This document shows positions 2 to 16,213 of a stretch of 20,000 nt of DNA, piece after piece. The position numbers and the translations under genes were made by a program. The DNA comes from an uncultured virus (IMG/VR IMGVR_UViG_3300008459_007659). Taxonomy: Duplodnaviria > Heunggongvirae > Uroviricota > Caudoviricetes. Each line of letters opens with the position of its first letter. The stretch's first letter is position 1. The stretch covers positions 110,563-130,562 of the IMG/VR virus record IMGVR_UViG_3300008459_007659. One strand, 5' to 3'. The notes beneath the pieces are model-generated. The model did not search any database and was not told the DNA's origin. It saw nothing but the letters and a program-made list of their open reading frames with translations.

Positions 2-1621
2 TTGAGATTGATTGGTGCTCCTGATGCCATTACCGAATTTAATGAATATGTGTATGTTGCTGATCAGAGAATAAATTTAACTCAATTTGGGGAACAATAT
101 ACTCAAATATCGGGAGGTACATATGTACAGGATATACCTGTATTGGATACTACCGACATATATTCAATTATGGGTGTTCAGTATACGGGATTCACAACAA
201 ATACTGTAACTCAAGATATTACAGTAACCAAAGTTGATTACCCTATAGATAGTTTTGGTTATCCAAGTATGCCTGTAGACAGTGATAATTTCTTCTTCCA
301 AATTGGGGGAGGATGGATAGAATCTACACCACAACATAGAATGCCGGCACAAGTTGATTTGACGACTAGTGTATTTACAGGTGCAAACCCAAATTATCAA
401 ACAACTTTACAACCATTCAATTACGGGGAAGAATATTTACAGAGATTTAAACAATTTCCATATATGGATTTAGGTTTTAAATTACGAAAAACTGCGGATA
501 ATAAAAAAAGTTGGGTGGTAAATAATGAAATTATTAGGAGAAGTACTGATGGTGGATTTACAGCTTATTACCCTACTGATGATGATAGATTAGTGTTGAA
601 TGTTAAAAATATTGACATTTTTATGAATCCAGCTCAGGGACTTGTTTACGATGTTTGGAATATGTCACGACAATATAATTACCCAATACCTGAAGAAGGA
701 TTGAATTATATTGCACCAACATACTGTAACCCAAATCCTAACACACCATACCCACAAAGAGGGGGAATAGATTGGACTGAAATTATACCAAAACCAAAAC
801 AAAAAACATTTTTTGAATTTGCTCAAAGTTTTTGGCATAACACAATTAATGTTAGAAATAGACAATTTATTACTGATGGAAAGACGGGAGGTTATCCGAC
901 ACTTCAGTCAATTTATTGGAAATATCTTGAATCACTAGAATTGGCGGGAATTAAAAACGACAATTTTACTTATCAGACAATGATAGATTATGTAAATGGT
1001 ATTGGGGATTATTGGATTAGATTAATTGAACAAATGGTTCCGGCAACAACAATATGGAATGCCGGTACAAAGTACGAAAATTCAATATTCCACAGGCAAA
1101 AATATGTGTGGAGAAGACAGATGGGTTGTCAATTAGTACTTGTACCTTGTAACCCATGTACATTAGTGGGGCAATTATTTACCTACGATTGTCCAATCCA
1201 AACGGTAAGTTGTTCAGTGTATCCTTGGGATACAAATCCTTATATTAATTCATTTGGTAATGTTCTTGGTGATATGTTAAATGGTTATCTATCATCAAAC
1301 GGTTTAACATTTGGTGATTGTGATATGAATACGTTACAAACTACTTGGTATGTGAATGTTAAATTTAATGGAAATGATATTATTAACTACCCATTCTTCA
1401 ATGGGGTTGGATATAATAACCCATTATCTGTACCAAGCGGACAAACTTGGGTTGATGCAATACAAACAAGTTTTGTTGATTTACAAACATATGGGTTAAG
1501 TTATTATTTAAATGATGATGAAACAAGTTTTACTGTATTTAATAGTACTTGTATCCCATTAAGCGTAGTTCAAAGTTTTGAACTTAATGTTGGAATAAAT
1601 TTTAATTTACTATGTAACTAA
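2..1621 (+). CDS. 5'-truncated putative virion structural protein (possible baseplate wedge-like protein)
   Basis: Frame is open from the window edge (LRLIGAP...), so the listed start is not the true start. Stop TAA overlaps the next ATG (TAATG). 'YWIRLIEQMVPATT' is loosely reminiscent of baseplate wedge proteins. Sits in a structural gene context and has a Cys-containing C-terminal domain shared with the next protein. Confidence 0.55.
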   Translation: MRLIGAPDAITEFNEYVYVADQRINLTQFGEQYTQISGGTYVQDIPVLDTTDIYSIMGVQYTGFTTNTVTQDITVTKVDYPIDSFGYPSMPVDSDNFFFQIGGGWIESTPQHRMPAQVDLTTSVFTGANPNYQTTLQPFNYGEEYLQRFKQFPYMDLGFKLRKTADNKKSWVVNNEIIRRSTDGGFTAYYPTDDDRLVLNVKNIDIFMNPAQGLVYDVWNMSRQYNYPIPEEGLNYIAPTYCNPNPNTPYPQRGGIDWTEIIPKPKQKTFFEFAQSFWHNTINVRNRQFITDGKTGGYPTLQSIYWKYLESLELAGIKNDNFTYQTMIDYVNGIGDYWIRLIEQMVPATTIWNAGTKYENSIFHRQKYVWRRQMGCQLVLVPCNPCTLVGQLFTYDCPIQTVSCSVYPWDTNPYINSFGNVLGDMLNGYLSSNGLTFGDCDMNTLQTTWYVNVKFNGNDIINYPFFNGVGYNNPLSVPSGQTWVDAIQTSFVDLQTYGLSYYLNDDETSFTVFNSTCIPLSVVQSFELNVGINFNLLCN

Positions 1622-3882
1622 TGAGTTGTGGTTTACCATATGTGTATAATTATTTTGTAAGCGGAGATTGCTCTAATATAGGTGCTGGAGTAGTATCATT
1701 TGATATTACAGGAAGTACCGCTCCTCCATATTCTGTAATGGAATTAACCACATCAGGTTTGTTACCGACTTCTGCGTCTACTACTTCATATTATTTTAGT
1801 GGTTTAACTGGTGGTTCATATAGTTTGGAAATTACGGATTCTTGTTTAAGTCCAGGACCTTCATCCGCAATAATAAATTTTAATATATCTACAGGTAGTT
1901 GTTTATCAATATCGTCAACAACAAATACAACTTGTGGTAATAATAACGGATCTTTAACCTCAACATTCTCAGTTGATTATGGGGGTGGAGAAGTTTTTCT
2001 ATATGAAACAACAAATGGGTATCAATCAAGTGGTGCAACAACCCTTGGTAGTTATACTTTTAATTCATTATCAGGTGGTACATATTATGTTATCGGAAAT
2101 GATGGAGGTGGATGTACTGGGAAAAGTGAAAGTTGTATTGTAAAATCCTCAACAACGGTTGATTTTGGTGTTTATGTTATAAATGATGGTAGTTGTGTTG
2201 CACTTGATGGAAGTGGGAAGATAATTGTTACAGGACAGACGGGAACATCACCATATACATATAGTTGGAGTAGTAATGCGAATGGACAAACAGGTTCTAC
2301 AGTTACAGGATTAACGAGCGGTGTTTATAGTGTGACTATGACGGATTCGTTAGGATGTTCAAAAACACTAACAAATATTACGGTGAACCAAGTGTTACCT
2401 GTTGGTATTGTTAATTTTACTATTGTGTCACCAAGTTGTTTCTCAAATGACGGGGAGGTTACAGTCCAACTTACAGGAGGGACATCACCTTTCTATTATT
2501 CAGGATCAAATGGTAGTGTCGCAATTTCATTCTCAGATAGTTATACATTTACGGGGTTATCTTCAGGTGATTTTACTGTTAATGTTACCGATGCTGGATT
2601 ATGTACTAGCTCACAAACAACAACATTATTAACACCTAACGGATTCTCAATTCTTAATCTTAGTACGGTTAATTCAAATTGTAATAATAGTGACGGACAA
2701 ATTTTTATTGAATTAAATGGTGGTTCTAATGTTGGTACATATGTTTACACTTTAATAAATTCTTTAGGTAATACTGTATCTACATCAACTGAAGGTAATA
2801 ATTATCATTCGCCACCATTATCATCGGATACATATACTATTTTGATTAGTGGAGGTTCTTGTGTATTTACCGCAACAACAATAATAAATAATACTAATTT
2901 ATATACAATTACCGCAAATACCACAGGTACAACTTGTGGTTTTAATAATGGGACAATACAGATTTTAGCGTCAAGTGGGGGTACACTACCATATACCTAT
3001 CAAATCACCGGATTTCCACCTGGACCCGTATCAACATTTAGTAATTTATCTCCAGGATTTTATGATGTAACTGTAACGGATTCAGGAGGTTGTCAACAAA
3101 TTGAAACGGTATATATTACAGGATCGTCTCCAGTGTATTTTGATTTTTTTGCTACACAACCTATAAGTGGGAATGATGGAGAACTTGATGTATTAATAAC
3201 AAGTGGGGAGCCACCGTTTATTTTAAATTGGAGTTCTAATGTTAATGGACAAACAGGAACTACCGTGACTGGTTTAACTGCGGGAACATATTCATTAGAG
3301 GTAATTGATGATAATGGATGTGCATTAATTAAAACGATTGAATTATTTGGAACAGTACTATATAGTAGTTATCAAACATATAGAGTATGTTCTAATAATT
3401 TCCAAAATAGTGGTACTCTTGGTAGAAGAGGTATACAACAAATGTTAAATGAAGGTTTCTTTGATTTAACATCGGGAGATACTAATTGTATATTAAATTC
3501 TGCTATTTTTACGCTTGATGTGACAGTAAATGGTGTTAATTCTCAAACCGTATTTTATACATCAACAGGACTTGATGATTACCCAACAGATGAGGAATGG
3601 GTTAATGAAATTAAAACTTCTTTATATGGTTTTTCGGGAATTACTTCGGTTGAAACCAATATTGAAACTAATAAAATAATAATTAAGAGTGGTTGTTTAA
3701 CTGGAGGCACAACTTGTCAACCTACGGTAACAACACAATTGGATGACACAAGAGTAATAATTAATTTGTTAATAGATTATGACATATCTTGTGTGGAATG
3801 TGGAGTATATCAAAAAGTTTTCCAAGACGACTTTGAGTTTGTATTCCAAGATGATAATAGTTATATATTCCAAGGACAGTAA
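1621..3882 (+). CDS. Virion-associated protein with tandem SprB-like beta-sandwich repeats and a C-terminal FQD tag
   Basis: 753 aa. Repeated C..DG.(I/V)...TGGT.P(Y/F).YSW......TGL..G.Y.V.VTD..GC pattern typical of SprB repeats. No signal peptide or T9SS C-terminal domain is apparent. Coupled to both neighbours by TAATG overlaps. Confidence 0.7.
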   Translation: MSCGLPYVYNYFVSGDCSNIGAGVVSFDITGSTAPPYSVMELTTSGLLPTSASTTSYYFSGLTGGSYSLEITDSCLSPGPSSAIINFNISTGSCLSISSTTNTTCGNNNGSLTSTFSVDYGGGEVFLYETTNGYQSSGATTLGSYTFNSLSGGTYYVIGNDGGGCTGKSESCIVKSSTTVDFGVYVINDGSCVALDGSGKIIVTGQTGTSPYTYSWSSNANGQTGSTVTGLTSGVYSVTMTDSLGCSKTLTNITVNQVLPVGIVNFTIVSPSCFSNDGEVTVQLTGGTSPFYYSGSNGSVAISFSDSYTFTGLSSGDFTVNVTDAGLCTSSQTTTLLTPNGFSILNLSTVNSNCNNSDGQIFIELNGGSNVGTYVYTLINSLGNTVSTSTEGNNYHSPPLSSDTYTILISGGSCVFTATTIINNTNLYTITANTTGTTCGFNNGTIQILASSGGTLPYTYQITGFPPGPVSTFSNLSPGFYDVTVTDSGGCQQIETVYITGSSPVYFDFFATQPISGNDGELDVLITSGEPPFILNWSSNVNGQTGTTVTGLTAGTYSLEVIDDNGCALIKTIELFGTVLYSSYQTYRVCSNNFQNSGTLGRRGIQQMLNEGFFDLTSGDTNCILNSAIFTLDVTVNGVNSQTVFYTSTGLDDYPTDEEWVNEIKTSLYGFSGITSVETNIETNKIIIKSGCLTGGTTCQPTVTTQLDDTRVIINLLIDYDISCVECGVYQKVFQDDFEFVFQDDNSYIFQGQ

Positions 3883-4184
3883 TGACACAATTGGTGATAA
3901 GTAATGTTACAGGATTAACAATACCATATCAAATATATGTTTGTGATGTTTATGGTAATAATTGTACAATAGTTGCAACTGTAAATACTGTAATTCCACC
4001 AATGGTTACAATTACATTACCATCACAATTTAATATGTCACCAGCAATAGGAGTATTAGTAAAAGATTTATATTGTGAAAGATTTATTGTTTTAAATTGC
4101 GTTAATTTACCACCTGTAGGAAAACAATTCCAAGACGGAGATTACTTCTTCTTTATGGATTATAGCATTTATCAGTTCCAATAA
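3882..4184 (+). CDS. Small Ig-like/beta-sandwich protein with C-terminal FQD tag (putative fibre adaptor)
   Basis: 100 aa, TAATG-coupled. The first ~75 aa are paralogous to the 15992..16213 protein (YVCD....C..V.T motif). It ends KQFQDGDYFFFMDYSIYQFQ. Confidence 0.65.
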   Translation: MTQLVISNVTGLTIPYQIYVCDVYGNNCTIVATVNTVIPPMVTITLPSQFNMSPAIGVLVKDLYCERFIVLNCVNLPPVGKQFQDGDYFFFMDYSIYQFQ

Positions 4185-4196
4185 TGAATTAAAGTG

Positions 4197-4204
4197 TATT
4201 TATA
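4197..4204 (+). promoter_or_regulatory. TATTTATA motif, putative late promoter
   Basis: Lies 14 nt upstream of ATG 4219. The same motif precedes the genes at 8563, 10104, 11724 and (as TATTTATC) the minus-strand gene at 16213. Confidence 0.55.
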
Positions 4205-4218
4205 TATAAAAAAGAATA

Positions 4219-7200
4219 ATGGCATTTTTAACGGATCAAATACCAGCAACCGGGGTTAATTTAACTGATTTATTTCACATAGTGGATCCTAATGATTTAT
4301 CACAAGGTAATCCTGCTGGATCATCATATAAAGCGTGTTTTCAGCAAGTACTTGGAGCATTAACGGGTGGAACATCTGTTATGATAGTTGGTTCTGGAAT
4401 TGGTTCGGTTGAAAGATGTGGTAATAATAATGATGCAAGTGGGAACTACTCCACTGTAAGTGGTGGTAGAGTAAATACATCAAGTTGTAATTGGTCAACT
4501 GTAAGTGGGGGGTATTGTAACACATCAAGTGGGTGTTATTCGACAGTAGGTGGCGGACAACAAAATGGTTCAACATCTAATAATTCAACTGTAAGTGGCG
4601 GGTATTGTAATACAATCTTAACAGGAGCAACAAACTCAACTATAGGTGGAGGGAACTCCAATACAATACTAATAGGATCAACTTTAACAACGATTGGTGG
4701 TGGTGGTTTGAATACATCAAGCGGTTCTAGATCAACCGTAAGTGGTGGTGTTGGTAACACATCAAGTGGTGGTGGATCAACAGTTGGTGGTGGTCAAAGT
4801 AACGAATCAAATGGGGCTAACTCAACCGTAAGTGGAGGTTATTATAATACATCAAGTGGTGACTGGTCAACAATTGGCGGTGGTAGTGGGAATACATCAA
4901 GTAATTATTTTTCAACAATTGGCGGTGGTAGAAGTAACACATCAAGTGGGTGTTACTCAACCGTTGGTGGTGGTAAATGTAACACATCATCAGGTACTTA
5001 TTACTCAACTATAAGTGGAGGATATCGTAATACATCAATTGGTAGTGAATCAACCATAGGTGGGGGGCGTTTTAATACCTCAAGCGGTTACTATTCAACT
5101 ATAAGTGGAGGACGTTGTAACTCATCAATTGGTGCGGATTCAACCATAAGTGGTGGTCTTAGTAACAAAACAAATAGTGACACATCAACCATAGGTGGTG
5201 GGTGTAATAATACAATATTAACTGGTTCAACAAGTTCATCAATTGGTGGTGGTGAATGTAATACAATCTTAACAGGATCAACAAGTTCATCAATTGGTGG
5301 TGGTGAATGTAATACAATCTTAACAGGATCAACACATTCAACAATTGGAGGGGGTGTGAGTAATACTTCAAGCGATTATTATTCAACCGTAGGTGGTGGT
5401 GCAAACAACACTTCAAGTGGAGGTAGATCAACCATAAGTGGGGGAGCAAGTAGTACATCAAGTGGATATTATTCAACCGTAGGTGGTGGTAGATGTAATA
5501 GATCGTTAGGGGATTCTACAACCGTAGGTGGTGGTCAATTTAATAGGGCGTGTGGTCAAATATCAACAATAAGTGGGGGGCGAGCAAATATTTCGTGTGG
5601 AACATATAGTTCAGTCGGTGGTGGAAACGCTAATACGTCAAGTAGTTATGCATCAACTGTTGGAGGTGGATTCAGTAACACATCTTATGGTGTGTGTTCA
5701 ACAGTAAGTGGTGGTCGTCAAAATACATCGGTTGGTGATACCTCAACGGTAAGTGGGGGTATAGGTAATACATCATTAGGAGCGTGCTCAGTAATTGGTG
5801 GGGGTGTTTGTAATACAAATATGTCTACGGGTGGTTTTATAGGATCAGGTTGTGGAAATACTTCGTGTGATGTTTATAGTTTAGTAGTTGGAGGTTATTT
5901 TAATAAAGTTAACGGTAAAGCTTCAACAGTTAGTGGAGGTTATTGTAATACAATATTAGCTGGAGCAACAAGTTCAACCATTGGTGGTGGACAACAAAAT
6001 ACAATATTAGCATCAGCAGCAAACTCAACCATTGGTGGAGGTAGTGGTAACACAATAAGTAGTTTTTCATCAGTCGTAGTAGGTGGATGTTTAAACACGT
6101 CAAGTGGGGGATACTCATTTATCGGTGGTGGTAGAAGAAATGTGTCAATCGGTTTTATATCAACCGTAAGTGGAGGTTATTGTAACACATCAATCGGAGA
6201 TTGCTCAACCGTAGGTGGTGGTAGAGGTAACACATCAAGTGGGTGTTATTCAACCGTTGGTGGGGGAACGCAAAATAAAAGTAATGGTGTAGTATCAACA
6301 ATAAGTGGGGGTAGAACTAATACCGCATCAAATTATTTTACATTTATTGGTGGAGGTAGAGGTAACACATCAAGTGGGTGTTATTCGACAATAGGTGGTG
6401 GATGTTTGAATCGATCTTTAGGTGTTGGATCAACAATAGGTGGTGGATTGCAAAATATAACAAGTGGTAATTGTTCGTCAATATTAGGAGGAATTAGTAA
6501 TACATCAAATTGTAATGGATCAACCGTAGGTGGTGGTTGTCGTAATACTGCATCAAATTATTTTTCGTTTGTTGGTGGAGGACTACAAAATACAAATAAT
6601 GGTGTTTGGGGTACCTTATCTGGAGGTATATGTAATAGACTTATAGGTAACGGAGCATCAATTGGTGGTGGTTCTAACAATACTGCTTGTGGAGATTATT
6701 CGGTAATAAGTGGTGGAATATCGGGAACTACAACGGCAAGTAATAATTTCATTGGTGGAGGAAGTAATAACACAACAACAGGAAACTACTCCTCAATTTT
6801 AGGTGGAGTATTTAACACCTCAATAGGAAATTATTCTTCAATTTTAGGAGGTTCAGGAAATACCGTAACACATAATTGTTCATCGGCTTTTGGTGTTGGT
6901 ATTACATCGGTTTCAGCGTGTACATTCCATACAAATTATTTAACATTACAAAATACACCAGATACTGATCCGTCAAATACAAATTTCTTGGTGAGAGATA
7001 CATCAACAGGTGTCGTTAAATCAAGAGATATTTCATTACCGTTGAATTATGCGACCTCCGCAATAACATCATCACAAACATTAACTTGGGATAAAAGTTA
7101 TTGGGGGGTTAGTGGTTCATCAAATGTTGATTTAACATTACCGACAACAACATCGAAAGATGGTTATTATTTATTGATAAAAGATGAAGCAGGAACTTCT

Positions 7201-7326
7201 GGTTCATACAGAATAAGATTAACGCCAGCATCAGGATTGATTGATGGTAATTCATATGTTGATATGAATATAAACTATATGTCTCTTACTGTTATGGTGA
7301 GAAACGGAAATTGGTATATAATATGA
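4219..7326 (+). CDS. Long fibre/adhesin-like protein: N-terminal anchor domain, 53 Gly-rich beta-roll-type repeats, C-terminal T4 gp9/gp10-like domain
   Basis: 1035 aa. 15-aa (some 16-17 aa) repeats STxxGGxxNTSSxxx resemble YadA-head-type trimeric beta-rolls. The C-terminal 'LTLP...G....IKDEAG....I......IDG......Y.SL......W.I' resembles gp9/gp10-like domains. Stop TGA overlaps the next ATG. Confidence 0.7.
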   Translation: MAFLTDQIPATGVNLTDLFHIVDPNDLSQGNPAGSSYKACFQQVLGALTGGTSVMIVGSGIGSVERCGNNNDASGNYSTVSGGRVNTSSCNWSTVSGGYCNTSSGCYSTVGGGQQNGSTSNNSTVSGGYCNTILTGATNSTIGGGNSNTILIGSTLTTIGGGGLNTSSGSRSTVSGGVGNTSSGGGSTVGGGQSNESNGANSTVSGGYYNTSSGDWSTIGGGSGNTSSNYFSTIGGGRSNTSSGCYSTVGGGKCNTSSGTYYSTISGGYRNTSIGSESTIGGGRFNTSSGYYSTISGGRCNSSIGADSTISGGLSNKTNSDTSTIGGGCNNTILTGSTSSSIGGGECNTILTGSTSSSIGGGECNTILTGSTHSTIGGGVSNTSSDYYSTVGGGANNTSSGGRSTISGGASSTSSGYYSTVGGGRCNRSLGDSTTVGGGQFNRACGQISTISGGRANISCGTYSSVGGGNANTSSSYASTVGGGFSNTSYGVCSTVSGGRQNTSVGDTSTVSGGIGNTSLGACSVIGGGVCNTNMSTGGFIGSGCGNTSCDVYSLVVGGYFNKVNGKASTVSGGYCNTILAGATSSTIGGGQQNTILASAANSTIGGGSGNTISSFSSVVVGGCLNTSSGGYSFIGGGRRNVSIGFISTVSGGYCNTSIGDCSTVGGGRGNTSSGCYSTVGGGTQNKSNGVVSTISGGRTNTASNYFTFIGGGRGNTSSGCYSTIGGGCLNRSLGVGSTIGGGLQNITSGNCSSILGGISNTSNCNGSTVGGGCRNTASNYFSFVGGGLQNTNNGVWGTLSGGICNRLIGNGASIGGGSNNTACGDYSVISGGISGTTTASNNFIGGGSNNTTTGNYSSILGGVFNTSIGNYSSILGGSGNTVTHNCSSAFGVGITSVSACTFHTNYLTLQNTPDTDPSNTNFLVRDTSTGVVKSRDISLPLNYATSAITSSQTLTWDKSYWGVSGSSNVDLTLPTTTSKDGYYLLIKDEAGTSGSYRIRLTPASGLIDGNSYVDMNINYMSLTVMVRNGNWYII
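4450..6879 (+). repeat. Coding tandem repeat array, ~45-bp (15-aa) units with 51-bp variants, 53 units
   Basis: Counted by hand from the translation. Recurrent nucleotide core tcaac..taagtggtgg...aa(c/t)acatcaagt. Confidence 0.9.
5227..5334 (+). repeat. Exact 51-bp tandem duplication (2 copies plus 6 bp)
   Basis: tcaacaagttcatcaattggtggtggtgaatgtaatacaatcttaacagga at 5227-5277 and 5278-5328, identical. Confidence 0.95.
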
Positions 7327-8543
7327 GTTTTATTTTTAATAATCAAGTATCTTATAGTGACAGTGCAAATTTAGATGCATTTGGTAGGTTAAGAACTGCC
7401 GCAGTCCAAAATTTATTGGACATTAAACACGTATACGATAAAAATCCATTACAAGTAAATGAGGTTACCGCAGGAACTGCAACGTCAATTTTTAATCAAC
7501 AATTTGCGAGAGTTAGAATGTCAACTGCGGCAAATAATGATTTAGTTATAAGACAATCAAAAACACACCCTATTTACCAACCAGGAAAAAGTCAATTATT
7601 CCAAGCAAGTTTCTCAAATTTTCAGTTAGAAACAAATGTCATAAAAAGGGTGGGAGGATTCACCTCAACAACGGCATCTACATATAATTCGGTTTTTGAT
7701 GGGTTCTTTTTAGAAAGTAATGGGGTAACAAACGAAATAAGTTTTCAAATATGGAGATCGGGAACTACGGTTTATAGTGCGGCAACAACCGTATGGAACA
7801 CTAATGAATTTAACCCAATAGGTTTAGATTGGTCTAACACTAATTTAATGTCAGTTGATTATCAATGGTTAGGTGTTGGTAGAATGAGATTTGGTTTGGA
7901 TTTAGATGGAATATTAATTTATTTTACCGAACATAATTGTGCTAATAACGAACCAAATGTTTATATGTCATCACCAAATCAACCAATAAGGTATGAAATA
8001 AGACAAGTTGGTGTTGGTTCAGGAAGTTTTGATATGATATGTTCACAAGTATCAACCGAAGGAGCATTAAACGGACTATATTCCACTGTAGGAGTTATAA
8101 ACTCAACCACTGCAGATTTAAATTCGTCAGGTACAAAATATCCATATATTGGTTATAGACTTAAACCAAGTTATAAATCAGTGACATCGCAATATAGTAG
8201 TTTGAGTATTTTAAATACCTCAAATGATAATTACTTAGTGACTATTGAATTTAATCCTACATTATCTGCAACTCCAAGTTGGACAGATATACCAAATTCA
8301 CCATTTCAATATTCAATATATAATGGGACTGTTACAACAACGATAACATCACCAGGTCACATTATGTCGTCTTTAATTGGTGAATCAGGATCATCAGCAC
8401 TTTCAACAATTAAAGTGGATGATAATCAAATTAGAGTTGGTTCTAATGTTGATGGAACACTTGATGAAATGTGGGTATGTATAACACCATTAAGTGCAAG
8501 TGCAACATTTTTGGGAACCGCAGAAGTATTATATTATTTATAA
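7323..8543 (+). CDS. 'DAFGRLR'-motif phage structural protein, probable beta-sandwich/lectin-like fibre-associated protein
   Basis: ATG 7323 overlaps the upstream TGA (ATGA) and is preferred over the TTG at 7311. The N-terminal LDAFGRLR and internal 'YQPGKSQ' and 'DYQWLGVGRMRFG' motifs recall a recurrent phage tail-region family. The lectin-like fold is inferred. Confidence 0.6.
   Translation: MSFIFNNQVSYSDSANLDAFGRLRTAAVQNLLDIKHVYDKNPLQVNEVTAGTATSIFNQQFARVRMSTAANNDLVIRQSKTHPIYQPGKSQLFQASFSNFQLETNVIKRVGGFTSTTASTYNSVFDGFFLESNGVTNEISFQIWRSGTTVYSAATTVWNTNEFNPIGLDWSNTNLMSVDYQWLGVGRMRFGLDLDGILIYFTEHNCANNEPNVYMSSPNQPIRYEIRQVGVGSGSFDMICSQVSTEGALNGLYSTVGVINSTTADLNSSGTKYPYIGYRLKPSYKSVTSQYSSLSILNTSNDNYLVTIEFNPTLSATPSWTDIPNSPFQYSIYNGTVTTTITSPGHIMSSLIGESGSSALSTIKVDDNQIRVGSNVDGTLDEMWVCITPLSASATFLGTAEVLYYL
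8535..8542 (+). promoter_or_regulatory. TATTTATA motif, putative late promoter
   Basis: Overlaps the last codons and stop of the upstream gene, 20 nt before ATG 8563. Confidence 0.45.
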
Positions 8544-8562: not shown

Positions 8563-10014
8563 ATGGCAAATCAAAAACTTACAGACAGAGTATTGGCAAC
8601 GGGAGTCACATTAAATGATTTAATTCATATTGTAATTCCGACAGATATAACTGACGATCCTGCGGGTTCATCATATAAAGCAACCGTTAGTCAGATGATG
8701 GACACTATAAGTGGTTCCACAATTATGGTTTTGGATGCAGGAATTGGATCAACAATGAGATGTGATAATAATAATGAAGCGTCGGGAAGTTATTCAACAG
8801 TTAGTGGAGGTTATTGTAATACCTCAAGTGGAAATAAATCAACTGTAAGTGGTGGATACCTTAATACATCGAGTAGTTATTACTCAACAGTTGGTGGTGG
8901 AGCGGCTAACACATCTAGTTGTGTTTATTCGACGGTAAGTGGTGGTCGTAACAACACATCAAGCGGTATTTATTCATTTATTGGTGGAGGATCCTTCAAT
9001 AATAATAGTTCTTGTGGAAGTGTTATATCGGGTGGTGCAAATAATTTAACAGGACCAACAGGTGTTATCTCAACTCTAAGTTCATATACTCCAAGTGCTG
9101 GATTAGGTCTTGCAGATGCGACTTACGGACCTTATTCTCAAACAACAACAAGTGGTTATGGTGTTGGTGCGGATTTTACATTTGATGTTAGTGGTAATAC
9201 AATAACTGGAGTTACAATCACAAATGGAGGTTTTGGATATAGTAATGGTGACACTATTTTTATTACAGGAACAACTTTTCCTGGTGGTACATCATCAAAT
9301 GATGTTACATTAACTATTAATAATGTTTTAAGTAGTTATTATTCAACCGTAAGTGGAGGACTAAATAATACATCAAGTGGAGATTGCTCAACCATAGGTG
9401 GAGGTAGAGGTAACACATCAAGTGGTAATGGTTCATTTGTTGGTGGCGGATCATTTAACAAATCAACTAATAATTTTTCAACAGTTGTAGGAGGTGCGGG
9501 TAACACATCAAGTTCTTATTATGTGACAATTGGTGGGGGAAAATACAACACATCAAGTGCTTGTTACTCAACCGTAAGTGGTGGATATAGAAATACAACA
9601 TTAACGGGGTCAACATATTCAATAATAGGTGGTGGTCGTAGTAACACATCAAGTGCTTCGTATTCAACAATAAGTGGTGGGTATTGTAATACAATTTTAA
9701 CAGGATCAACAAGTACAACAATTGGTGGTGGTTATCAAAATACAATATTAACAGGATCTACATATTCAACAATAAGTGGTGGTATATGTAACACATCAAT
9801 TGGAATATCTTCGTCAATATTAGGTGGTTCTGGAAATACGGTTATACACGATTGTTCATTTATTGTTGGTAATGGAATAGCAACTTCTTGTCCTAATACG
9901 ACATATATGAATTGTTTATCAATTATGGATTTACCAAATGAATCGTCATTACCATTACCTTCAGGTTCTGTTTATTATTGTACGACAGGTTGTGGTATTT
10001 ACTATGTTCCATAA
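8563..10014 (+). CDS. Short fibre/adhesin-like protein paralogous to 4219..7326; 17 beta-roll-type repeats with an inserted ~94-aa domain
   Basis: 483 aa. N-terminus LTD...ATGV.L.DL.HIV.P.D....PAGSSYKA aligns with the long fibre. Same repeats and same post-repeat neck, but a different short C-terminus. Confidence 0.7.
   Translation: MANQKLTDRVLATGVTLNDLIHIVIPTDITDDPAGSSYKATVSQMMDTISGSTIMVLDAGIGSTMRCDNNNEASGSYSTVSGGYCNTSSGNKSTVSGGYLNTSSSYYSTVGGGAANTSSCVYSTVSGGRNNTSSGIYSFIGGGSFNNNSSCGSVISGGANNLTGPTGVISTLSSYTPSAGLGLADATYGPYSQTTTSGYGVGADFTFDVSGNTITGVTITNGGFGYSNGDTIFITGTTFPGGTSSNDVTLTINNVLSSYYSTVSGGLNNTSSGDCSTIGGGRGNTSSGNGSFVGGGSFNKSTNNFSTVVGGAGNTSSSYYVTIGGGKYNTSSACYSTVSGGYRNTTLTGSTYSIIGGGRSNTSSASYSTISGGYCNTILTGSTSTTIGGGYQNTILTGSTYSTISGGICNTSIGISSSILGGSGNTVIHDCSFIVGNGIATSCPNTTYMNCLSIMDLPNESSLPLPSGSVYYCTTGCGIYYVP
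8794..9855 (+). repeat. Coding repeat array (17 units) interrupted at ~9049-9330
   Basis: Same unit as 4450-6879, counted from the translation. Confidence 0.9.
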
Positions 10015-10103: not shown

Positions 10104-11690
10104 ATGTCCAATTGTTATTGTTTAGAATTTAGTTTTGCAAAGGTTAATCAGTATGATTTAACCTATCAAGATTGTAGTGGAAACACTGTAACAGAAACAT
10201 TCCAAAGTGGTACAACATACAATATATGTAGTGAAAATTTTGATCCAATAACAAATTGTTTAGATATTGATTTTGAAGTTAAAGGACTCTGTGTTAATGG
10301 AGTTTGCCCTGGTGGATTATTTAAATATCAAAATGAATGCGATGTAATAACAATATTCCCATTGGGAGTACAATGTTTAACTGAAAATCCAACAACAAGT
10401 AATAGTTTTGACGGTGTGGCATCTTTGTATATTACAGGAGGTACACCACCATATTTTATATCATGGGAAAATGGTAATTATTCTCAAACATTAACAAATT
10501 TGGGTTCAGGAGAATATGATGCGGTTGTTACCGATTTTTATGGTGACTTTACCGCAAGAACAACTTGTTATTTAACCGCACCAAGTCCGACACCAACACC
10601 AACTCCTACACCAACTCCTACACCGATACCGGCATTTAGTGGTTTATGTTTAATTGTTGAAGGTAGAATAGGTAAAGATCCTTATCTTGAATTAATTGAT
10701 TTTGGTTATAATGGGTATTATAATGGAAAACCAACTTGGACATCAACACCTTCAGGTTATGATGTGGTATGGATGAGTGGTACAAGTCAGTGGGAAGTGT
10801 CAGGATGGACATACGGTAGTTTAGTTAATTTAAATCCAGCTACACCACCTATTGCTGGATGGCAATCTATTGGTTCAGTACCACCAAATCCGTCAATATT
10901 ATCGGTACAAATGAGTGAAGGAACTTGTGCAAGTCAAGACATATTGAGATATGAATTAACAGTTAACCAACCTACTTGTGTTCGTAAAGATGGTTTAGGT
11001 GGATGTATTAGTGACGGAAGTATAATATTTAATATTATTGATGGAGTTCCACCATATGAGTATAGTATAGATGGATTCAACTTCTTCCCTAACCAACCTA
11101 TCTTCCAAAGTCTATGTCCTGGGTTATACACAACAATTGTTACAGACTCTTCAGGACAAACATTTAGTCAAATTGTGAATTTAATACAACCGGCAGCACC
11201 TCAAATATATGCACTAACATTATCACTAAACGCCACGTCAACCGCATTTAATGTTACGGTTTCACCACAATTACCTGTAGGTACTACTCTTTCATTTGAT
11301 TTAGTACATGAGAAATATTTTACAGAACAACCTCAATTTAATGCGTACACTTGGAATAATGTGGTTACAGTAAATAAAAATATGATTCCTGTTCCATATA
11401 GTACAACCACTAATAGTGGGTCATCAAATGCTTTACCTGATAAAGTGTGTATTGGAGGTGTTGTTGTTGAGTCACTTACAACATTTACTTGGGATAATAT
11501 AACTATGGTACAGGGAGACACTGTTAGTGGTACAATTAGTAATCCAACACCAATATTGAATCTACCTTTAGAAACTCACTGTTTATCTGAAAAACATTCA
11601 TATAATTTATATTTAAATGATGTAAAGTTAACTAACTGTCCTTGTTGTTCGGTAACCGTAATAAATAAACCGATAGGAAAAGTAGGGTAA
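10104..11690 (+). CDS. Cys-rich multidomain virion-associated protein with SprB-like repeats and a Pro-Thr linker
   Basis: 528 aa. DGVASLYITGGTPPYFISW...LGSGEY...VTD and DGSIIFNIIDGVPPYEYSIDG...LCPGLY...VTDSSG are SprB-like. (PT)n linker at ~10581-10631. Confidence 0.65.
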   Translation: MSNCYCLEFSFAKVNQYDLTYQDCSGNTVTETFQSGTTYNICSENFDPITNCLDIDFEVKGLCVNGVCPGGLFKYQNECDVITIFPLGVQCLTENPTTSNSFDGVASLYITGGTPPYFISWENGNYSQTLTNLGSGEYDAVVTDFYGDFTARTTCYLTAPSPTPTPTPTPTPTPIPAFSGLCLIVEGRIGKDPYLELIDFGYNGYYNGKPTWTSTPSGYDVVWMSGTSQWEVSGWTYGSLVNLNPATPPIAGWQSIGSVPPNPSILSVQMSEGTCASQDILRYELTVNQPTCVRKDGLGGCISDGSIIFNIIDGVPPYEYSIDGFNFFPNQPIFQSLCPGLYTTIVTDSSGQTFSQIVNLIQPAAPQIYALTLSLNATSTAFNVTVSPQLPVGTTLSFDLVHEKYFTEQPQFNAYTWNNVVTVNKNMIPVPYSTTTNSGSSNALPDKVCIGGVVVESLTTFTWDNITMVQGDTVSGTISNPTPILNLPLETHCLSEKHSYNLYLNDVKLTNCPCCSVTVINKPIGKVG

Positions 11691-14846: not shown

Positions 14847-14878
14847 AAATATCGTCTTTTTAGACGATATTTTTTTTT
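14847..14878 (+). terminator. Rho-independent terminator between convergent genes
   Basis: Perfect 11-bp stem AAATATCGTCT / AGACGATATTT with a TTTT loop, followed by a T run on +. It may also act more weakly on the minus strand. Confidence 0.8.
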
Positions 14879-15989
14879 ATGGTGAACTCGGAGTTGGTGT
14901 TGGTGTTTGAGTCAATGTCGGAGTTGGTGTCGGAGTTAATGTAACACAAGGACAATCAATAAAAACTATATTAATGTTATTACCTACAGGTATCTTATAT
15001 GATTTTACAGTAATTGTTGAACCACCATTTATGTTTATTACTTGAGTCTCGTTATTACTACAGTTTTTAATATTAAAAGTATTTGCAGTATATAGTAAAT
15101 TAGTTACTTTATACTCACAACAAACATCAGGAGTTTGAGTTGGTGTTAATGTAGGTGTAGGTGTTGGTGTAGGTGTTGGAGTTGAACTAACAGGTGGAAT
15201 ACAAACAAGACATCCTCCTTCAGAAACTAAACCATTCTCAGTGTTCAAGACTATAATATCAACACCACTAATATTATCCGCAGTACCAATGTACTCAATA
15301 CAAACATCTATCTCATTCACTTCCGCCTCATATACCATACCAATTACTGGAGTACCACCTGTCGGGTTTAATATAACATCAGTGGTTGAATAAATAAATC
15401 CATTTAAACAATCTTTGAATTGTTTGCTATTTGGACATTTAATATAATCATCAAGAGTGTTAAATGTTACTAAACCTGTATAATTACATGGTCTGGTAAT
15501 TTCAGGTGAAGGTGTTGGAGTTAATGTTGGAGTTGGTGTTGGAGTTGGTGTATATGTAATACCCGAAACATTAATACCGATCCCACCACAAGGGTTTGTT
15601 GAGGTTGGTGTCATTGTTGGGGTTAATGTCGGAGTTGGTGTCGGAGTTGGAGTTTGTGTTGTGGGTACATCACAATCAAAAATCGCATCAAAATCTATTG
15701 AACAAGCAGCACTTGGTGATGGAGTTGGTGTAGGGCAAATACCCGAACTAAAAAGTTCATCACATAAATCAGGACAAGAACTTACACAAGGTGATTTACC
15801 AAATAATAAACAATTTGGATCCCCTAAAGTTAATGCTAAACACCATTGAGTTTGTCCTGTTGAATAATAAATAGTATATGTATCTCCTGTGAAATAATCA
15901 TAACCCGCATCGTAAGTACCTGCGGAAAAATATGTACCATCAAAAGATGATGAAGTACCACTTACACAATATTGACCAAAACAAGACAT
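14877..15989 (-). CDS. Cys-rich, Pro-Thr-linker multidomain protein, probably virion-associated
   Basis: 370 aa with 22 Cys (hand count) and five (PT)n tracts. Module types resemble those of the 10104..11690 protein. Confidence 0.7.
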   Translation of the reverse strand: MSCFGQYCVSGTSSSFDGTYFSAGTYDAGYDYFTGDTYTIYYSTGQTQWCLALTLGDPNCLLFGKSPCVSSCPDLCDELFSSGICPTPTPSPSAACSIDFDAIFDCDVPTTQTPTPTPTPTLTPTMTPTSTNPCGGIGINVSGITYTPTPTPTPTLTPTPSPEITRPCNYTGLVTFNTLDDYIKCPNSKQFKDCLNGFIYSTTDVILNPTGGTPVIGMVYEAEVNEIDVCIEYIGTADNISGVDIIVLNTENGLVSEGGCLVCIPPVSSTPTPTPTPTPTLTPTQTPDVCCEYKVTNLLYTANTFNIKNCSNNETQVININGGSTITVKSYKIPVGNNINIVFIDCPCVTLTPTPTPTLTQTPTPTPSSP

Positions 15990-15991
15990 AC

Positions 15992-16213
15992 TTAAACGGT
16001 TACGGTGTCAGTTACAACACAATTATTATCATCCACAATTTTAACTATAAAATCAGTTAAAGATGAGTACACTGGTGGAATCTCAAAGGTATATGGTAAG
16101 TCACCACTTACGATTGTTGATACATAAATACAACTTGTGTATCCTGTATCACATACATAAACATCAAATGGTGTTGAACCTGAAATATTATTTATTGTTA
16201 TATCTGTTGGCAT
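15992..16213 (-). CDS. Small Ig-like protein, paralog of 3882..4184 lacking the FQD tag
   Basis: 73 aa. ITINNISGSTPFDVYVCDTGYTSCIYVSTI aligns with LVISNVTGLTIPYQIYVCDVYGNNCTIVATV. There is a 2-nt gap to the next minus-strand gene. Confidence 0.75.
   Translation of the reverse strand: MPTDITINNISGSTPFDVYVCDTGYTSCIYVSTIVSGDLPYTFEIPPVYSSLTDFIVKIVDDNNCVVTDTVTV

What the first reader, a model, noticed from the sequence alone, without database searches (positions are those of the whole stretch)
3814..4443. Candidate peptide-tag/fibre docking system: two proteins end in the same triple 8-residue-periodic F-Q/M tag, followed by two fibres with a shared N-terminal domain
Seen: the 753-aa protein ends K-V-FQDDFEFV-FQDDNSYI-FQGQ (3814-3879) and the otherwise different 100-aa protein ends K-Q-FQDGDYFF-FMDYSIYQ-FQ (4122-4181). 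Both carry three F-Q/M units exactly 8 residues apart at the extreme C-terminus. The tag-less paralog at 15992..16213 shows the tag is a detachable add-on. Exactly two genes in the window (4219, 8563) share an N-terminal domain LTD..xATGV.L.DL.HIV.P.D....PAGSSYKA. Inference: a three-fold pseudo-repeated peptide on a monomeric scaffold could bind the three protomers of a homotrimeric fibre N-terminus (a 1:3 symmetry adaptor). That would make a plug-and-socket system for hanging interchangeable adhesive fibres on the virion, with two tags for two fibres here. I do not know of a description of this motif pair.
Basis: partly seen in the sequence, partly recalled or inferred. Interest (0 to 1): 0.85.

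Follow-up and report, generated by a model that had tools for sequence, protein, structure and literature searches.

The report
Peptide plug docks phage tail fibres
An uncultured giant phage carries a short, three-part peptide on two virion proteins that most likely acts as a plug for the three-chain base of separately encoded fibres, so fibres can be swapped like cartridges.

Summary
The 753-aa and 100-aa proteins end in a 20-22-residue tag: K-x-F-[Q/M]-D-x3-F-x-F-[M/Q]-D-x3-Y-x-F-Q. The tag is the best-conserved part of the small protein. It is under protein-level selection and has no Pfam, PDB or literature match.

In related viral contigs:
- 79 of 79 fibres fetched by their 45-aa N-domain have a tag-bearing gene just upstream.
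- 26 of 26 tagged small carriers are followed by such a fibre.
- 30 of 31 untagged carriers have no such fibre nearby.
- Two independent deletions remove tag and fibre together.
- Whole-record counts match in nine records: 2/2, 0/0, 2/2, 1/1, 2/2, 1/1, 1/1, 1/1, 1/1.

Tags and N-domains fall into two co-varying subtypes. This assigns the 100-aa tag to fibre 4219 and the 753-aa tag to fibre 8563.

A complex model (one carrier plus three fibre N-termini) scored ipSAE 0.75 against a best control of 0.00. Only the tag touches the fibres, and the three phenylalanines, 8 residues apart, each meet the same invariant residues of a different fibre chain.

The closest known systems are anchor-branch receptor-binding-protein docking (K1-5, G7C, KP32) and TP901-1 BppU-BppL. 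Here the peptide sits on the carrier, not on the fibre. No binding has been measured.

The parts
1621..3882 (+). Large carrier, 753 aa, with SprB-type Ig-like repeats. In most relatives the homologue stops at ...DISCVSC[S/T/N/D] and has no tag.
   Evidence: ORF. PF13573 SprB scores 38.4 bits against a cut-off of 28. Tag-less homologues of 728-748 aa are seen.
3814..3879 (+). Tag of the large carrier, KVFQDDFEFVFQDDNSYIFQGQ. It is subtype 2, with a hydrophobic residue before each F (V, V, I). Assigned to fibre 2.
   Evidence: The tag HMM scores 34 bits. The same non-adjacent pairing is seen in L009, L064 and L065.
3882..4184 (+). Small carrier, 100 aa: Ig/FN3-like anchor domain (residues 1-73), linker (74-80) and tag (81-100).
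   Evidence: 82 homologues. In the AF2 model residues 1-72 form a beta-sandwich with pLDDT 80-87, and the tail has pLDDT 55-64. Only weak FN3-like fold matches were found, with E of 0.064 or worse.
4122..4181 (+). Tag of the small carrier, KQFQDGDYFFFMDYSIYQFQ. It is subtype 1. It is the only part of the carrier that touches the fibre chains in the complex model.
   Evidence: The interface is carrier residues 79-100.
4219..7326 (+). Fibre 1, 1035 aa. After the N-domain it has about 15- and 17-residue Gly/Ser/Thr/Cys-rich repeats.
   Evidence: Tandem repeats with 45- and 51-nt periods.
4219..4353 (+). N-domain (socket) of fibre 1, MAFLTDQIPATGVNLTDLFHIVDPNDLSQGNPAGSSYKA.... It is subtype 1, with a short N-terminus.
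   Evidence: Alignments A1 and A2. In the model, residues 1-7, 20, 22, 29-31 and 33-36 of all three copies touch the tag.
8563..10014 (+). Fibre 2, 483 aa, with the same kind of repeats as fibre 1.
8563..8706 (+). N-domain of fibre 2, MANQKLTDRVLATGVTLNDLIHIVIPTD...PAGSSYKA. It is subtype 2, with its N-terminus extended by two residues.
15992..16213 (-). Tag-less paralogue of the anchor domain, 73 aa.

Best explanation
The 20-22-residue tag is a docking peptide. It consists of three 'hydrophobic-x-F' strands spaced 8 residues apart and joined by D-G-type turns. It sits on proteins that are presumably fixed to the virion: a small Ig-like anchor protein and a large SprB-repeat protein.

The conserved 45-residue N-domain of a separately encoded fibre is the socket. 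The fibre is presumably a homotrimer. One tag lies on the fibre's three-fold axis. Each of its three units packs against the same invariant residues (L4, T5, H20, V22, A33-S36) of a different fibre chain. This joins a monomer to a trimer (1:3).

Two orthogonal subtypes let one phage hang two different fibres at two sites. In this window the 100-aa tag pairs with fibre 4219 and the 753-aa tag pairs with fibre 8563. Linker, tag and fibre gene travel together as a cassette, and the distal part of the fibre is freely exchanged.

Shown by sequence: the motif, its conservation, adjacency, co-loss, copy-number match and subtype covariation.
Predicted: the interface and the 1:3 geometry.
Inferred: the trimeric state of the fibre, the location of the carriers on the virion, and the biological role in host adhesion.
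For: 1. Conservation. 81 of 82 homologues keep the complete tag. The tag is more conserved than the folded domain (0.73 against 0.62). Synonymous codons are mixed at conserved residues in 73 distinct tag DNAs, for example F3 is TTC 40 / TTT 29 and D5 is GAC 26 / GAT 30.

2. Reverse test. All 79 loci fetched with the N-domain profile (the best 80 of 214 confirmed stretches) have a tag-bearing ORF upstream. In 76 it ends 18-49 nt upstream. In 3 (L101-103) the gap is 268 nt and the carrier is a 960-aa protein.

3. Forward test. 26 of 26 loci with a tagged small carrier have the fibre adjacent. 30 of 31 loci with an untagged carrier have no N-domain.

4. Natural deletions. L053 against L014 (95-97% identical flanks) and L059 against L042 each lack the linker, tag and fibre. 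L053 keeps a remnant of the fibre's 3' end.

5. Whole-record counts of tags/N-domains: G001 (complete 304-kb form of this genome) 2/2, G002 (complete, 308 kb) 0/0, G003 2/2, G004 1/1, G006 2/2, G007 1/1, G008 1/1, G009 1/1, G010 1/1.

6. Portability. The tag occurs on small anchors of 97-114 aa and on carriers of 157, 286, 360, 419, about 750, 901 and 960 aa. It occurs internally in giant proteins of about 2800 aa. It occurs two or three times on P0086, P0092 and P0084. Every tag parsed has exactly three strands.

7. Covariation. Of 69 distinct adjacent pairs, 55 have an N-terminus of 3 residues or fewer before L-T-D and a tag with polar or aromatic x. 13 have an N-terminus of 5 or more residues and a tag with at least 2 of 3 x in I/V/L/M. 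1 is mixed and 0 are the reverse. Records with two adjacent pairs carry one of each subtype (L149, L156, L163, L177). The rule also holds for non-adjacent pairs: the large-carrier tags of L004, L009, L064 and L065 lie 2.8-4.4 kb from their fibres, and in G008 an internal tag lies 60 kb from its fibre. Within subtype 1, fibre residue 3 = K/R/T goes with the middle x = E in 8 of 8 pairs. Residue 3 = F/L goes with an aromatic x in 43 of 46 pairs.

8. Complex model. Three copies of fibre residues 1-60 were folded with the 100-aa carrier. ipSAE was 0.75, 0.75 and 0.77. The best of 3 controls was 0.00. The mark was reached by 116 of 157 solved complexes and 2 of 215 mismatched pairs; these counts hold only roughly here, because my own alignments were used and the job is not a pair of single chains. 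The runs agree in at least 94% of contacts. Partner pLDDT was 71-72. The carrier interface is residues 79-100 only. F83/Q84 touch copy 3, F91/M92 touch copy 2 and F99 touches copy 1, each through H20, V22 and S36. Fibre residue 3 touches Q82, F90 and Q98, which are the covarying x positions.

9. The tail is poorly ordered in the monomer model, with pLDDT 55-64.

10. The pass is not a memory of a solved complex at sequence level. The tag profile's best PDB hit has E 0.32. The N-domain profile has no PDB hit at E 10 or better.
Against: - No binding, stoichiometry or virion location has been measured. The phage is uncultured and has no relative among 50,697 deposited phage genomes.
- Tag and N-domain are usually only 18-49 nt apart. 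Their co-inheritance and covariation could therefore partly reflect linkage. Many loci are near-duplicates, and the independent evolutionary events are few: about 2-3 losses, 1-2 gains of the second pair and 2 ancient subtypes.
- One contig (L055/L181, 18 kb) has a subtype-2 fibre directly after an untagged 73-aa carrier, with no tag in the DNA held.
- Only the best 80 of 214 and the best 80 of 164 confirmed stretches were examined.
- The 1:3 model was the only stoichiometry folded. 3:3 and 1:1 were not tried.
- The trimeric state of the fibre rests on collagen-like (G-T-S)n shafts in relatives and on analogy.
- The calibration of the complex score does not strictly cover this kind of job.
- The carrier could be a transient assembly factor rather than a virion part.
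Confidence: 0.72

Rival explanations
1. The tag does bind the fibre N-domain, but only transiently. The carrier would be an assembly factor that nucleates or registers trimerisation of the fibre's N-terminus and is not kept in the virion.
For: The model places one tag on the trimer axis, in contact with all three chains. That is also what a trimerisation template would look like. The small carrier is only 100 aa. The deletion variants L053 and L059 suggest the module is dispensable.
Against: - The same tag sits on a 753-aa SprB-repeat protein within the baseplate/fibre gene block and inside proteins of about 2800 aa. These look like structural proteins.
- The anchor domain also carries directly fused payloads of 311-963 aa through PT-linkers, as a display module would.
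- From my own knowledge, known fibre chaperones act on C-terminal parts and are usually encoded downstream of the fibre.
Confidence: 0.12
2. Tag and fibre are only genetically linked as one mobile cassette. The tag's real partner would be something else: a baseplate or capsid site, or a host-surface glycan bound by its aromatic face.
For: Tag and N-domain are mostly 18-49 nt apart, so co-loss, equal copy number and covariation could all follow from linkage. Aromatic-rich short repeats are typical of carbohydrate-binding modules (my own knowledge).
Against: - Subtype matching also holds where tag and fibre are 2.8-4.4 kb or 60 kb apart.
- Linkage does not explain why the tag sits on the upstream gene and moves between at least seven carrier architectures while always keeping a fibre partner.
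- The complex model scores 0.75 against 0.00, and its contacts fall on the invariant and covarying residues.
Confidence: 0.1
3. The conserved 3' end of the carrier gene is a nucleic-acid signal for the fibre gene (promoter, ribosome-binding context or RNA structure), not a functional peptide.
For: It lies directly upstream of the fibre start in most loci.
Against: - Synonymous codons vary freely while the amino acids stay fixed in 73 distinct tag DNAs.
- The 753-aa protein's tag is followed by the small carrier gene, not by a fibre.
- Internal and multiple tags exist.
Confidence: 0.02

Closest known systems
Anchor-branch receptor-binding-protein systems (K1-5 adaptor gp37; G7C gp66/gp63.1; Klebsiella phages KP32, K11, KP34). 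Sources: PMC6872550, passages read; PMC13352976, abstract and outline read.
   Same: - A conserved docking element at the fibre or spike N-terminus is joined to a variable receptor-binding part.
- A second protein provides the docking site.
- Several receptor-binding proteins can sit on one virion.
- The system is modular and exchangeable.
- According to the PMC13352976 abstract, loss of either partner abolishes incorporation of the second receptor-binding protein.
   Different: - In those systems the short peptide (7-29 residues) is on the incoming receptor-binding protein and the socket is a folded T4gp10-like domain on the carrier.
- Here the short peptide is on the carrier and the folded 45-aa domain is on the fibre.
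- Here the peptide is an internal three-fold repeat.
[quoted passage not shown]
- There is no sequence similarity between the systems.
Lactococcal phage TP901-1 baseplate, BppU-BppL (recalled from my own knowledge of Veesler et al. 2012; no paper on this was opened here, and PMC10747895 was seen only in search listings).
   Same: One chain of a carrier holds the N-termini of one receptor-binding-protein trimer. This is a 1:3 monomer-to-trimer joint.
   Different: BppU uses a folded C-terminal domain, not a 20-residue repeat peptide. The phage is a siphophage. The sequences are unrelated.
T5-like phage DT57C, LtfA-LtfC (PMC10713586, passages read).
   Same: The fibre is attached through beta-strand contacts of short segments rather than through a globular joint. 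Three identical fibre chains take non-equivalent positions.
   Different: In DT57C the fibre N-termini donate strands to a dodecameric collar ring. There is no repeat peptide and no cassette organisation.
Adenovirus fibre tail-penton base, and cohesin-dockerin pairs (recalled from my own knowledge; concept only).
   Same: A short conserved peptide or small module gives a non-covalent and specific attachment. Cohesin-dockerin pairs come in orthogonal types.
   Different: The polarity, folds and organisms differ. They are analogies only.

Membership tests
Anchor-branch RBP docking system (T4gp10-like branching domain plus conserved N-terminal peptide) | T4gp10-like branching domain on the carrier or primary RBP | tested here: not met
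   Pfam and PHROGs scans of the 753-aa and 100-aa carriers found no gp10-like family. Profile-profile remote homology of the HHpred kind was not run.
Anchor-branch RBP docking system (T4gp10-like branching domain plus conserved N-terminal peptide) | Conserved N-terminal docking element on the secondary RBP with a variable distal part | tested here: met
   The 45-aa N-domain has 11 invariant columns across 39 fibres (A2). Complete fibres range from 98 to 1231 aa, with unrelated shafts that include collagen-like G-T-S repeats.
Anchor-branch RBP docking system (T4gp10-like branching domain plus conserved N-terminal peptide) | Removal of either partner abolishes incorporation of the fibre | not testable with these tools
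   Only natural variants could be examined. They have lost tag and fibre together.
SprB repeat proteins (PF13573) | Match above Pfam's gathering score | tested here: met
   The 753-aa carrier scores 38.4 bits against a cut-off of 28, in 3 stretches. This describes the carrier's body, not the tag.
Ig/FN3-like virion decoration or display domains (Hoc-like) | Beta-sandwich fold with a significant structural match | tested here: inconclusive
   The AF2 model of residues 1-72 is a six-strand sandwich with pLDDT 80-87. The best Foldseek hits are FN3/Ig domains at E 0.064-0.3 and TM 0.33-0.49, and none reaches E 0.001. The PHROG Hoc-like hit on the 753-aa protein is weak, at E 0.0026.
Tail-fibre assembly chaperones (Tfa / gp38 / gp57-like) | Family match; gene downstream of the fibre; action on the fibre's C-terminal part | tested here: not met
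   There is no family match. The carrier gene is upstream of the fibre. The predicted contacts are with fibre residues 1-36. The defining features themselves are recalled from my own knowledge.
Homotrimeric phage fibres | Three identical chains around a common axis | tested here: inconclusive
   Collagen-like (G-T-S)n shafts in relatives' fibres imply trimers. In the complex model the three copies use the same residues in a cyclic pattern. No oligomeric state was measured.

The most novel reading that the evidence does not exclude
A 20-24-residue peptide with an internal three-fold repeat, borne on a monomer, forms a pseudo-C3 plug on the axis of a homotrimeric fibre. It thereby solves the monomer-to-trimer symmetry mismatch with a portable tag instead of a folded adaptor domain.

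At least two natural orthogonal tag/socket subtypes exist. Carriers with two or three tags would hang several fibres on one chain. Because tag and fibre move as one cassette, a phage could acquire a new fibre together with its own docking site. The pair could also serve as a genetically encoded 'trimer-docking tag' for phage and protein engineering.
Probability: 0.5. Interest if true: 0.8.

Novelty: new variant of a known kind. Interest (0 to 1): 0.72.

Why it matters
How fibres are fixed to virions decides which receptor-binding proteins a phage can carry and exchange. Known docking systems use folded adaptor domains, or short peptides on the incoming fibre.

Here the evidence points to the reverse design. 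A minimal three-unit peptide on the carrier matches the three chains of the fibre. It comes in orthogonal subtypes and is inherited with the fibre as a cassette.

If binding is confirmed, three things follow:
- A sequence rule would link fibres to their attachment sites in uncultured jumbo phages.
- It would offer a natural explanation of how such phages gain, lose and multiply fibres.
- It would give a very small, specific peptide-trimer docking pair that could be tested at once with synthetic peptides.

Tried and rejected
- **Nucleic-acid signal idea:** rejected, because synonymous codons vary.
- **A solved structure or named family for the tag or N-domain:** none found. Pfam gave 0 families at E 1 or better that cover the tag; only sub-threshold chance hits appeared, such as EF-P at E 0.13-0.44. 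PHROGs gave none for the 100-aa protein or the fibres. The PDB sequence profile's best hit for the tag was E 0.32, and the N-domain had no hit at E 10 or better.
- **Literature:** full-text searches for the motif strings PAGSSYKA, FQDGD, FMDGD, FFFMD, LLLEDG, LLQEDG and ILQEDG returned only unrelated papers. Three keyword searches found known docking systems but not this motif.
- **Deposited phage genomes:** the window DNA, the 100-aa protein and the 812-aa protein had no match. The fibre N-terminus had only three chance-level hits at E 0.6. P0092 had no match.
- **Gene-split idea:** I tested whether the tag/N-domain pair arose by splitting a fused anchor-fibre gene. Fused anchor proteins (L015, L016, L018, L019, L023, L033, L037) carry PT-linkers and globular payloads, with nothing resembling the tag or the N-domain.
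- **A third pair in this genome:** I tested whether the 818-aa protein plus the 1513-aa fibre 'MANIRITDL...' form a conserved third tag/socket pair. In the 3 relatives examined (L224, L227, L229; 6 were fetched) the upstream proteins have no periodic tail, so this is not supported.
- **Earlier notes of this scan:** none exist for this genome or sequence.
- **Not tried:** only one complex job was allowed, so cognate against non-cognate pairings, scrambled tags and other stoichiometries were not tested.

Full report
**Where the window lies.** The window is bases 110563-130562 of a 130.5-kb IMG/VR virus record with 31% G+C. An identical stretch lies in a 304-kb record that CheckV rates 100% complete (L004 = G001). 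The genome is therefore that of an uncultured jumbo phage. The window DNA, the 100-aa protein and the 812-aa protein have no match among 50,697 deposited phage genomes, and the fibre N-terminus has only three chance-level hits at E 0.6. Only the 410-aa 'virion structural protein' (phrog_1645) has distant relatives, mostly in cyanophages. Upstream of the window the record holds sheath-like and large baseplate-like genes. The window holds the end of that structural block, followed by replication genes: a RuvC-like resolvase, a primase, an exonuclease and an SbcD-like nuclease.

**The observation.** A loose regex for three aromatic-Q/M units 8 residues apart at a C-terminus found only these 2 among 298 ORFs of the 130-kb record. 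The 100-aa protein has 82 homologues in the large protein library. Of these, 81 carry the complete tag and one is cut inside it.

The core of the tag is K-x-F-[Q/M]-D-x3-[F/Y]-x-F-[M/Q]-D-x3-[Y/F]-x-F-[Q/M], followed by 0-2 residues and the stop (A4). It is better conserved than the folded domain in front of it. The majority-residue frequency is 0.73 for the tag, 0.62 for the domain and 0.30 for the linker. In 73 distinct tag DNAs the conserved F, D, Q and K positions use both synonymous codons freely. Selection therefore acts on the peptide, not on the DNA.

**Anatomy of the carriers.** AlphaFold2, using a 38-row alignment, gives the 100-aa protein a six-strand beta-sandwich over residues 1-72 (pLDDT 80-87) and a poorly ordered tail (pLDDT 55-64). 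Foldseek finds only weak FN3/Ig-like matches, with E 0.064 or worse.

This roughly 70-residue 'anchor' domain occurs in five forms in related contigs:
- alone, at 67-78 aa, like the window's 73-aa paralogue at 15992..16213;
- with the tag;
- with other periodic tails;
- fused through Pro/Thr linkers to globular payloads of 311-963 aa;
- with an extra domain and then the tag (P0090).

The 753-aa protein has SprB-type repeats (PF13573, 38.4 bits). In most relatives its homologue ends at ...DISCVSC[S/T/N/D], exactly where the window's protein goes on into linker and tag.

**The fibres.** The two window fibres share only their first 45 or so residues. In 39 fibres from relatives this N-domain keeps 11 invariant columns: L4, T5, H20, V22, A33, G34, S35, S36, K38, A39 and Q43 (A2). 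The rest of the protein varies from 98 to 1231 residues in complete ORFs. It includes collagen-like (G-T-S)n shafts, which imply trimers.

**Tests of association.**
- *Reverse test.* I fetched loci with a profile of the N-domain, keeping the best 80 of 214 confirmed stretches, which gave 79 loci. All 79 have a tag-bearing ORF upstream. In 76 a small carrier of 97-114 aa ends 18-49 nt before the fibre start. In 3 (L101-103) a 960-aa homologue of the window's large carrier bears the tag, 268 nt upstream, and no small carrier is present.
- *Forward test.* Of 57 loci fetched with the 100-aa protein, 26 have a tagged small carrier, and all 26 have the fibre adjacent. Of the 31 with an untagged carrier, 30 have no N-domain in the locus.
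- *Natural deletions.* L053 differs from its 95-97% identical relative L014 by a deletion of about 640 bp. The deletion runs from codon 69 or so of the small carrier into the 3' end of the fibre gene and leaves a fibre remnant. L059 differs from L042 in the same way, with about 1055 bp replaced by 33 bp. L056 is a third tag-less, fibre-less locus.
- *Copy number in whole records* (tags/N-domains): G001 2/2; G002 (complete, 308 kb) 0/0; G003 2/2, both pairs adjacent; G004 1/1; G006 2/2; G007 1/1; G008 1/1; G009 1/1; G010 1/1. G005 was searched for the tag only and has 1.
- *All fetched loci.* Across L004-L219, the per-strand counts of (tags, N-domains) are (1,1) 148 times, (2,2) 24 times, (2,1) 10 times and (0,1) 4 times. 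For the three distinct sequence types I checked (L006, L008, L067), the (2,1) cases are loci that end before the second fibre. I did not check the other seven individually.

**The exceptions.** The four (0,1) cases come from three contigs.
- In L199 the fibre follows a 2823-aa protein that carries an internal tag at residue 2224.
- In the L205 genome (G008) an internal tag lies in a 2756-aa frame, 60 kb from the fibre.
- Both internal tags scored below my HMM threshold.
- The third contig (L055/L181) is 18 kb long. It has a fibre directly after an untagged 73-aa carrier, with no tag in the DNA held. It remains unexplained.

**Breadth.** A profile of the tag, run against 1.84 billion representative proteins, found 28 proteins at E 0.001 or better. 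Carriers range from 39 to 419 aa. P0086 has two tags in tandem, P0092 has three, and P0084 has two internal ones. Every tag that I parsed has exactly three 'x-F' strands. The tag is therefore rare, is restricted to this group of uncultured phages, and is portable between unrelated carriers.

**Two subtypes and the assignment in the window.** There are 69 distinct adjacent tag/N-domain pairs.
- In 55 the fibre starts M-x-x-L-T-D and the residues before the three F's are polar or aromatic, for example K-Q-F ... F-F-F ... Y-Q-F.
- In 13 the fibre has an N-terminus longer by two or more residues (MxxQ[K/R]LTDR, MPxYNRLTDR) and at least two of the three x residues are I/V/L/M, for example K-I-F ... 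F-L-F ... F-I-F.
- 1 is intermediate, and none shows the reverse combination.

Records with two adjacent pairs carry one pair of each subtype (L149, L156, L163, L177). The rule also holds where tag and fibre are not adjacent. The large-carrier tags of L004, L009, L064 and L065 are all subtype 2, and the second fibre, 2.8-4.4 kb downstream, is subtype 2. The internal tags of L199 and G008 are subtype 2, as are their fibres.

By this rule the window's 100-aa tag (Q, F, Q) belongs with fibre 4219 (MAFLTD...), and the 753-aa tag (V, V, I) belongs with fibre 8563 (MANQKLTDRVL...).

Within subtype 1 there is a finer covariation. Fibre residue 3 = K/R/T goes with a middle x of E in 8 of 8 pairs. Residue 3 = F/L goes with an aromatic middle x in 43 of 46 pairs.

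Caveat: these pairs are related by descent, so the number of independent changes is small.

**Complex prediction.** One job was allowed: three copies of fibre-1 residues 1-60 (39-row alignment) with the whole 100-aa carrier (38-row alignment) as the scored partner.
- The tool's verdict was that the model supports binding but does not show it.
- The score was ipSAE 0.75, 0.75 and 0.77. The best of 3 controls was 0.00.
- The mark was reached by 116 of 157 solved complexes and by 2 of 215 mismatched pairs. The tool warns that these counts hold only roughly here, because my own alignments were used and the job is not a pair of single chains.
- The runs agree in at least 94% of contacts. Partner pLDDT was 71-72.

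The carrier touches the fibres only through residues 79-100, which is the tag. Each fibre copy uses the same residues: 1-5(7), 20, 22, 29-31 and 33-36. The listed best contacts are cyclic:

| Fibre copy | H20/V22/S36 meet | Residue 7 meets | Residue 3 meets |
|---|---|---|---|
| Copy 3 | F83, Q84, F89 | F91 | Q98 |
| Copy 2 | F91, M92, Y97 | F99 | Q82 |
| Copy 1 | F99, K81 | F83 | F90 |

Q82, F90 and Q98 are the x positions, and F90 is the very position that covaries with fibre residue 3. The alignments were not paired, so this agreement is not built into the model.

This contact pattern is what a pseudo-threefold 1:3 plug on the trimer axis would give. I saw no coordinates, so the fold of the tag (a three-strand meander or a single triangular rung) is inference. 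Neither partner resembles a PDB sequence, so the pass is unlikely to be a memory of a solved complex.

**Mechanism proposed.** A protein that sits on the virion ends in, or contains, the tag. A fibre trimer closes its three N-domains around the tag. The three F's, with their flanking aromatic residues, fill equivalent pockets lined by H20, V22 and A33-S36. The fibre's first residues lie over the x face and set the subtype specificity. Monomeric payloads can be fused to the anchor directly. A trimer cannot be fused to a monomer, which would explain why a non-covalent three-unit tag is used for fibres.

- Shown by sequence: conservation, adjacency, co-loss, copy number and covariation.
- Predicted: the interface.
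- Inferred: the trimer, the virion location and the role in adhesion.

**Comparison with known systems.** Docking of receptor-binding proteins through conserved N-terminal elements is well known. In K1-5, G7C and Klebsiella phages a 7-29-residue N-terminal peptide of the secondary protein is thought to bind a T4gp10-like branching domain (PMC6872550, passages read). A 2026 study reports by engineering that the branching domain and this 'conserved docking peptide' are specific partners (PMC13352976, abstract and outline read). DT57C attaches its fibres by beta-strand donation to a collar protein (PMC10713586, passages read). From my own recall, TP901-1 BppU holds one BppL trimer per chain.

The present system works like these but is not a member of any of them:
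- no gp10-like domain was found;
- the short peptide is on the carrier rather than on the fibre;
- the peptide is itself three-fold repeated.

I therefore rate it a new variant of a known kind. I found no description of the motif pair in Pfam, PHROGs, the PDB or the paper library. That library lacks most subscription-journal papers.

**Limits.**
- Everything is computational.
- Many loci are near-duplicates from different samples.
- Only the best 80 hits of each fetch were seen.
- Linkage can explain part of the association.
- One contig contradicts the rule.
- Only one stoichiometry and one pairing were folded.

Noticed in passing
L018 3416-4027, L027 5700-6272, L188 3344-3637, L216 3841-4128 (also L200, L219): The same Ig-like anchor domain can carry a different 8-residue-periodic tail, such as ...SYLLQETGFYILQEDGFRIKIT ('type B'). 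Each such gene is followed at once by a fibre with a different N-terminus (MPDLPISSLP...). This may be a second tag/socket flavour.
   Followed up: partly
L149, L152, L161, L163, L172, L182, L196 (95-96-aa carriers): A third periodic tail...DTFFILTETALIITTESGDRLVWI, sits on anchor-domain proteins. It is followed by another anchor-domain gene rather than by a fibre.
   Followed up: no
L220 1877-4081 (GenBank OP947161.1, Rhodobacteraceae phage LS06-2018-MD05): A 735-aa 'virion structural protein' of a deposited 44.8-kb phage ends ...SFILLQDGSYILLEDGGRILLEN. This is a type-B-like tail with three units of 8-residue period at the extreme C-terminus. The BLAST hit was weak (E 10). The next gene does not start with a recognisable fibre N-domain.
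   Followed up: partly
G000:C1 28781-31237 and 31258-35799 (L222 282-2738 and 2759-7300): Elsewhere in the same genome an 818-aa ORF ends ...DFLVTQDFFYIRTQNNDYFIV (roughly 8-periodic). It lies 20 nt before a 1513-aa fibre that starts MANIRITDLDLVPF.... In the 3 relatives of that fibre N-terminus that I examined (of 6 fetched), the upstream proteins have no such tail.
   Followed up: yes
P0086, P0092, P0084: Some carriers bear several tags. P0086 (206 aa) has two in tandem at its C-terminus. P0092 (194 aa) has three. P0084 (a 381-aa fragment) has two internal ones. If each tag holds a trimer, one chain could hold two or three fibres.
   Followed up: no
L199 494-8962; L221 (G008:C1:143300-144300): Giant proteins of about 2800 aa carry an internal subtype-2 tag (...DNYIF[E/Q]S.EDYLFMGSE.[FY]IFQDQ...) after a Cys-rich stretch. 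The tag is therefore not obligatorily C-terminal.
   Followed up: partly
L053 8203-8260 compared with L014 8213-8910: The tag-less, fibre-less variant L053 still holds the last 30 codons or so of the fibre gene, fused out of context. It is therefore a recent deletion from an L014-like ancestor, and the module is dispensable or under variable selection.
   Followed up: yes
window 4436-6263 and 9547-9795: Both fibres are built of tandem 45-nt and 51-nt units (15- and 17-residue Gly/Ser/Thr/Cys-rich repeats such as STVSGGxxNTSSGxx). Several near-identical copies occur at 5185-5366.
   Followed up: partly
window 10104-11690, 11724-14162, 14877-15989 (-): Three further large proteins of unknown family carry long Pro/Thr linkers (TPTPTPTP...). 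The 528-aa one has a sub-threshold SprB-repeat match and ends in a Cys-rich ...CPCCSVTVINKP motif that is conserved in relatives.
   Followed up: no
window 7311-8543: The 410-aa protein between the two fibres matches phrog_1645 'virion structural protein' (E 9e-50). It has distant relatives in 139 deposited phages, mostly Synechococcus myophages. In relatives with one tag, this gene and fibre 2 are replaced by a 326-331-aa protein (MENILFVSAQPDVPYF...).
   Followed up: partly
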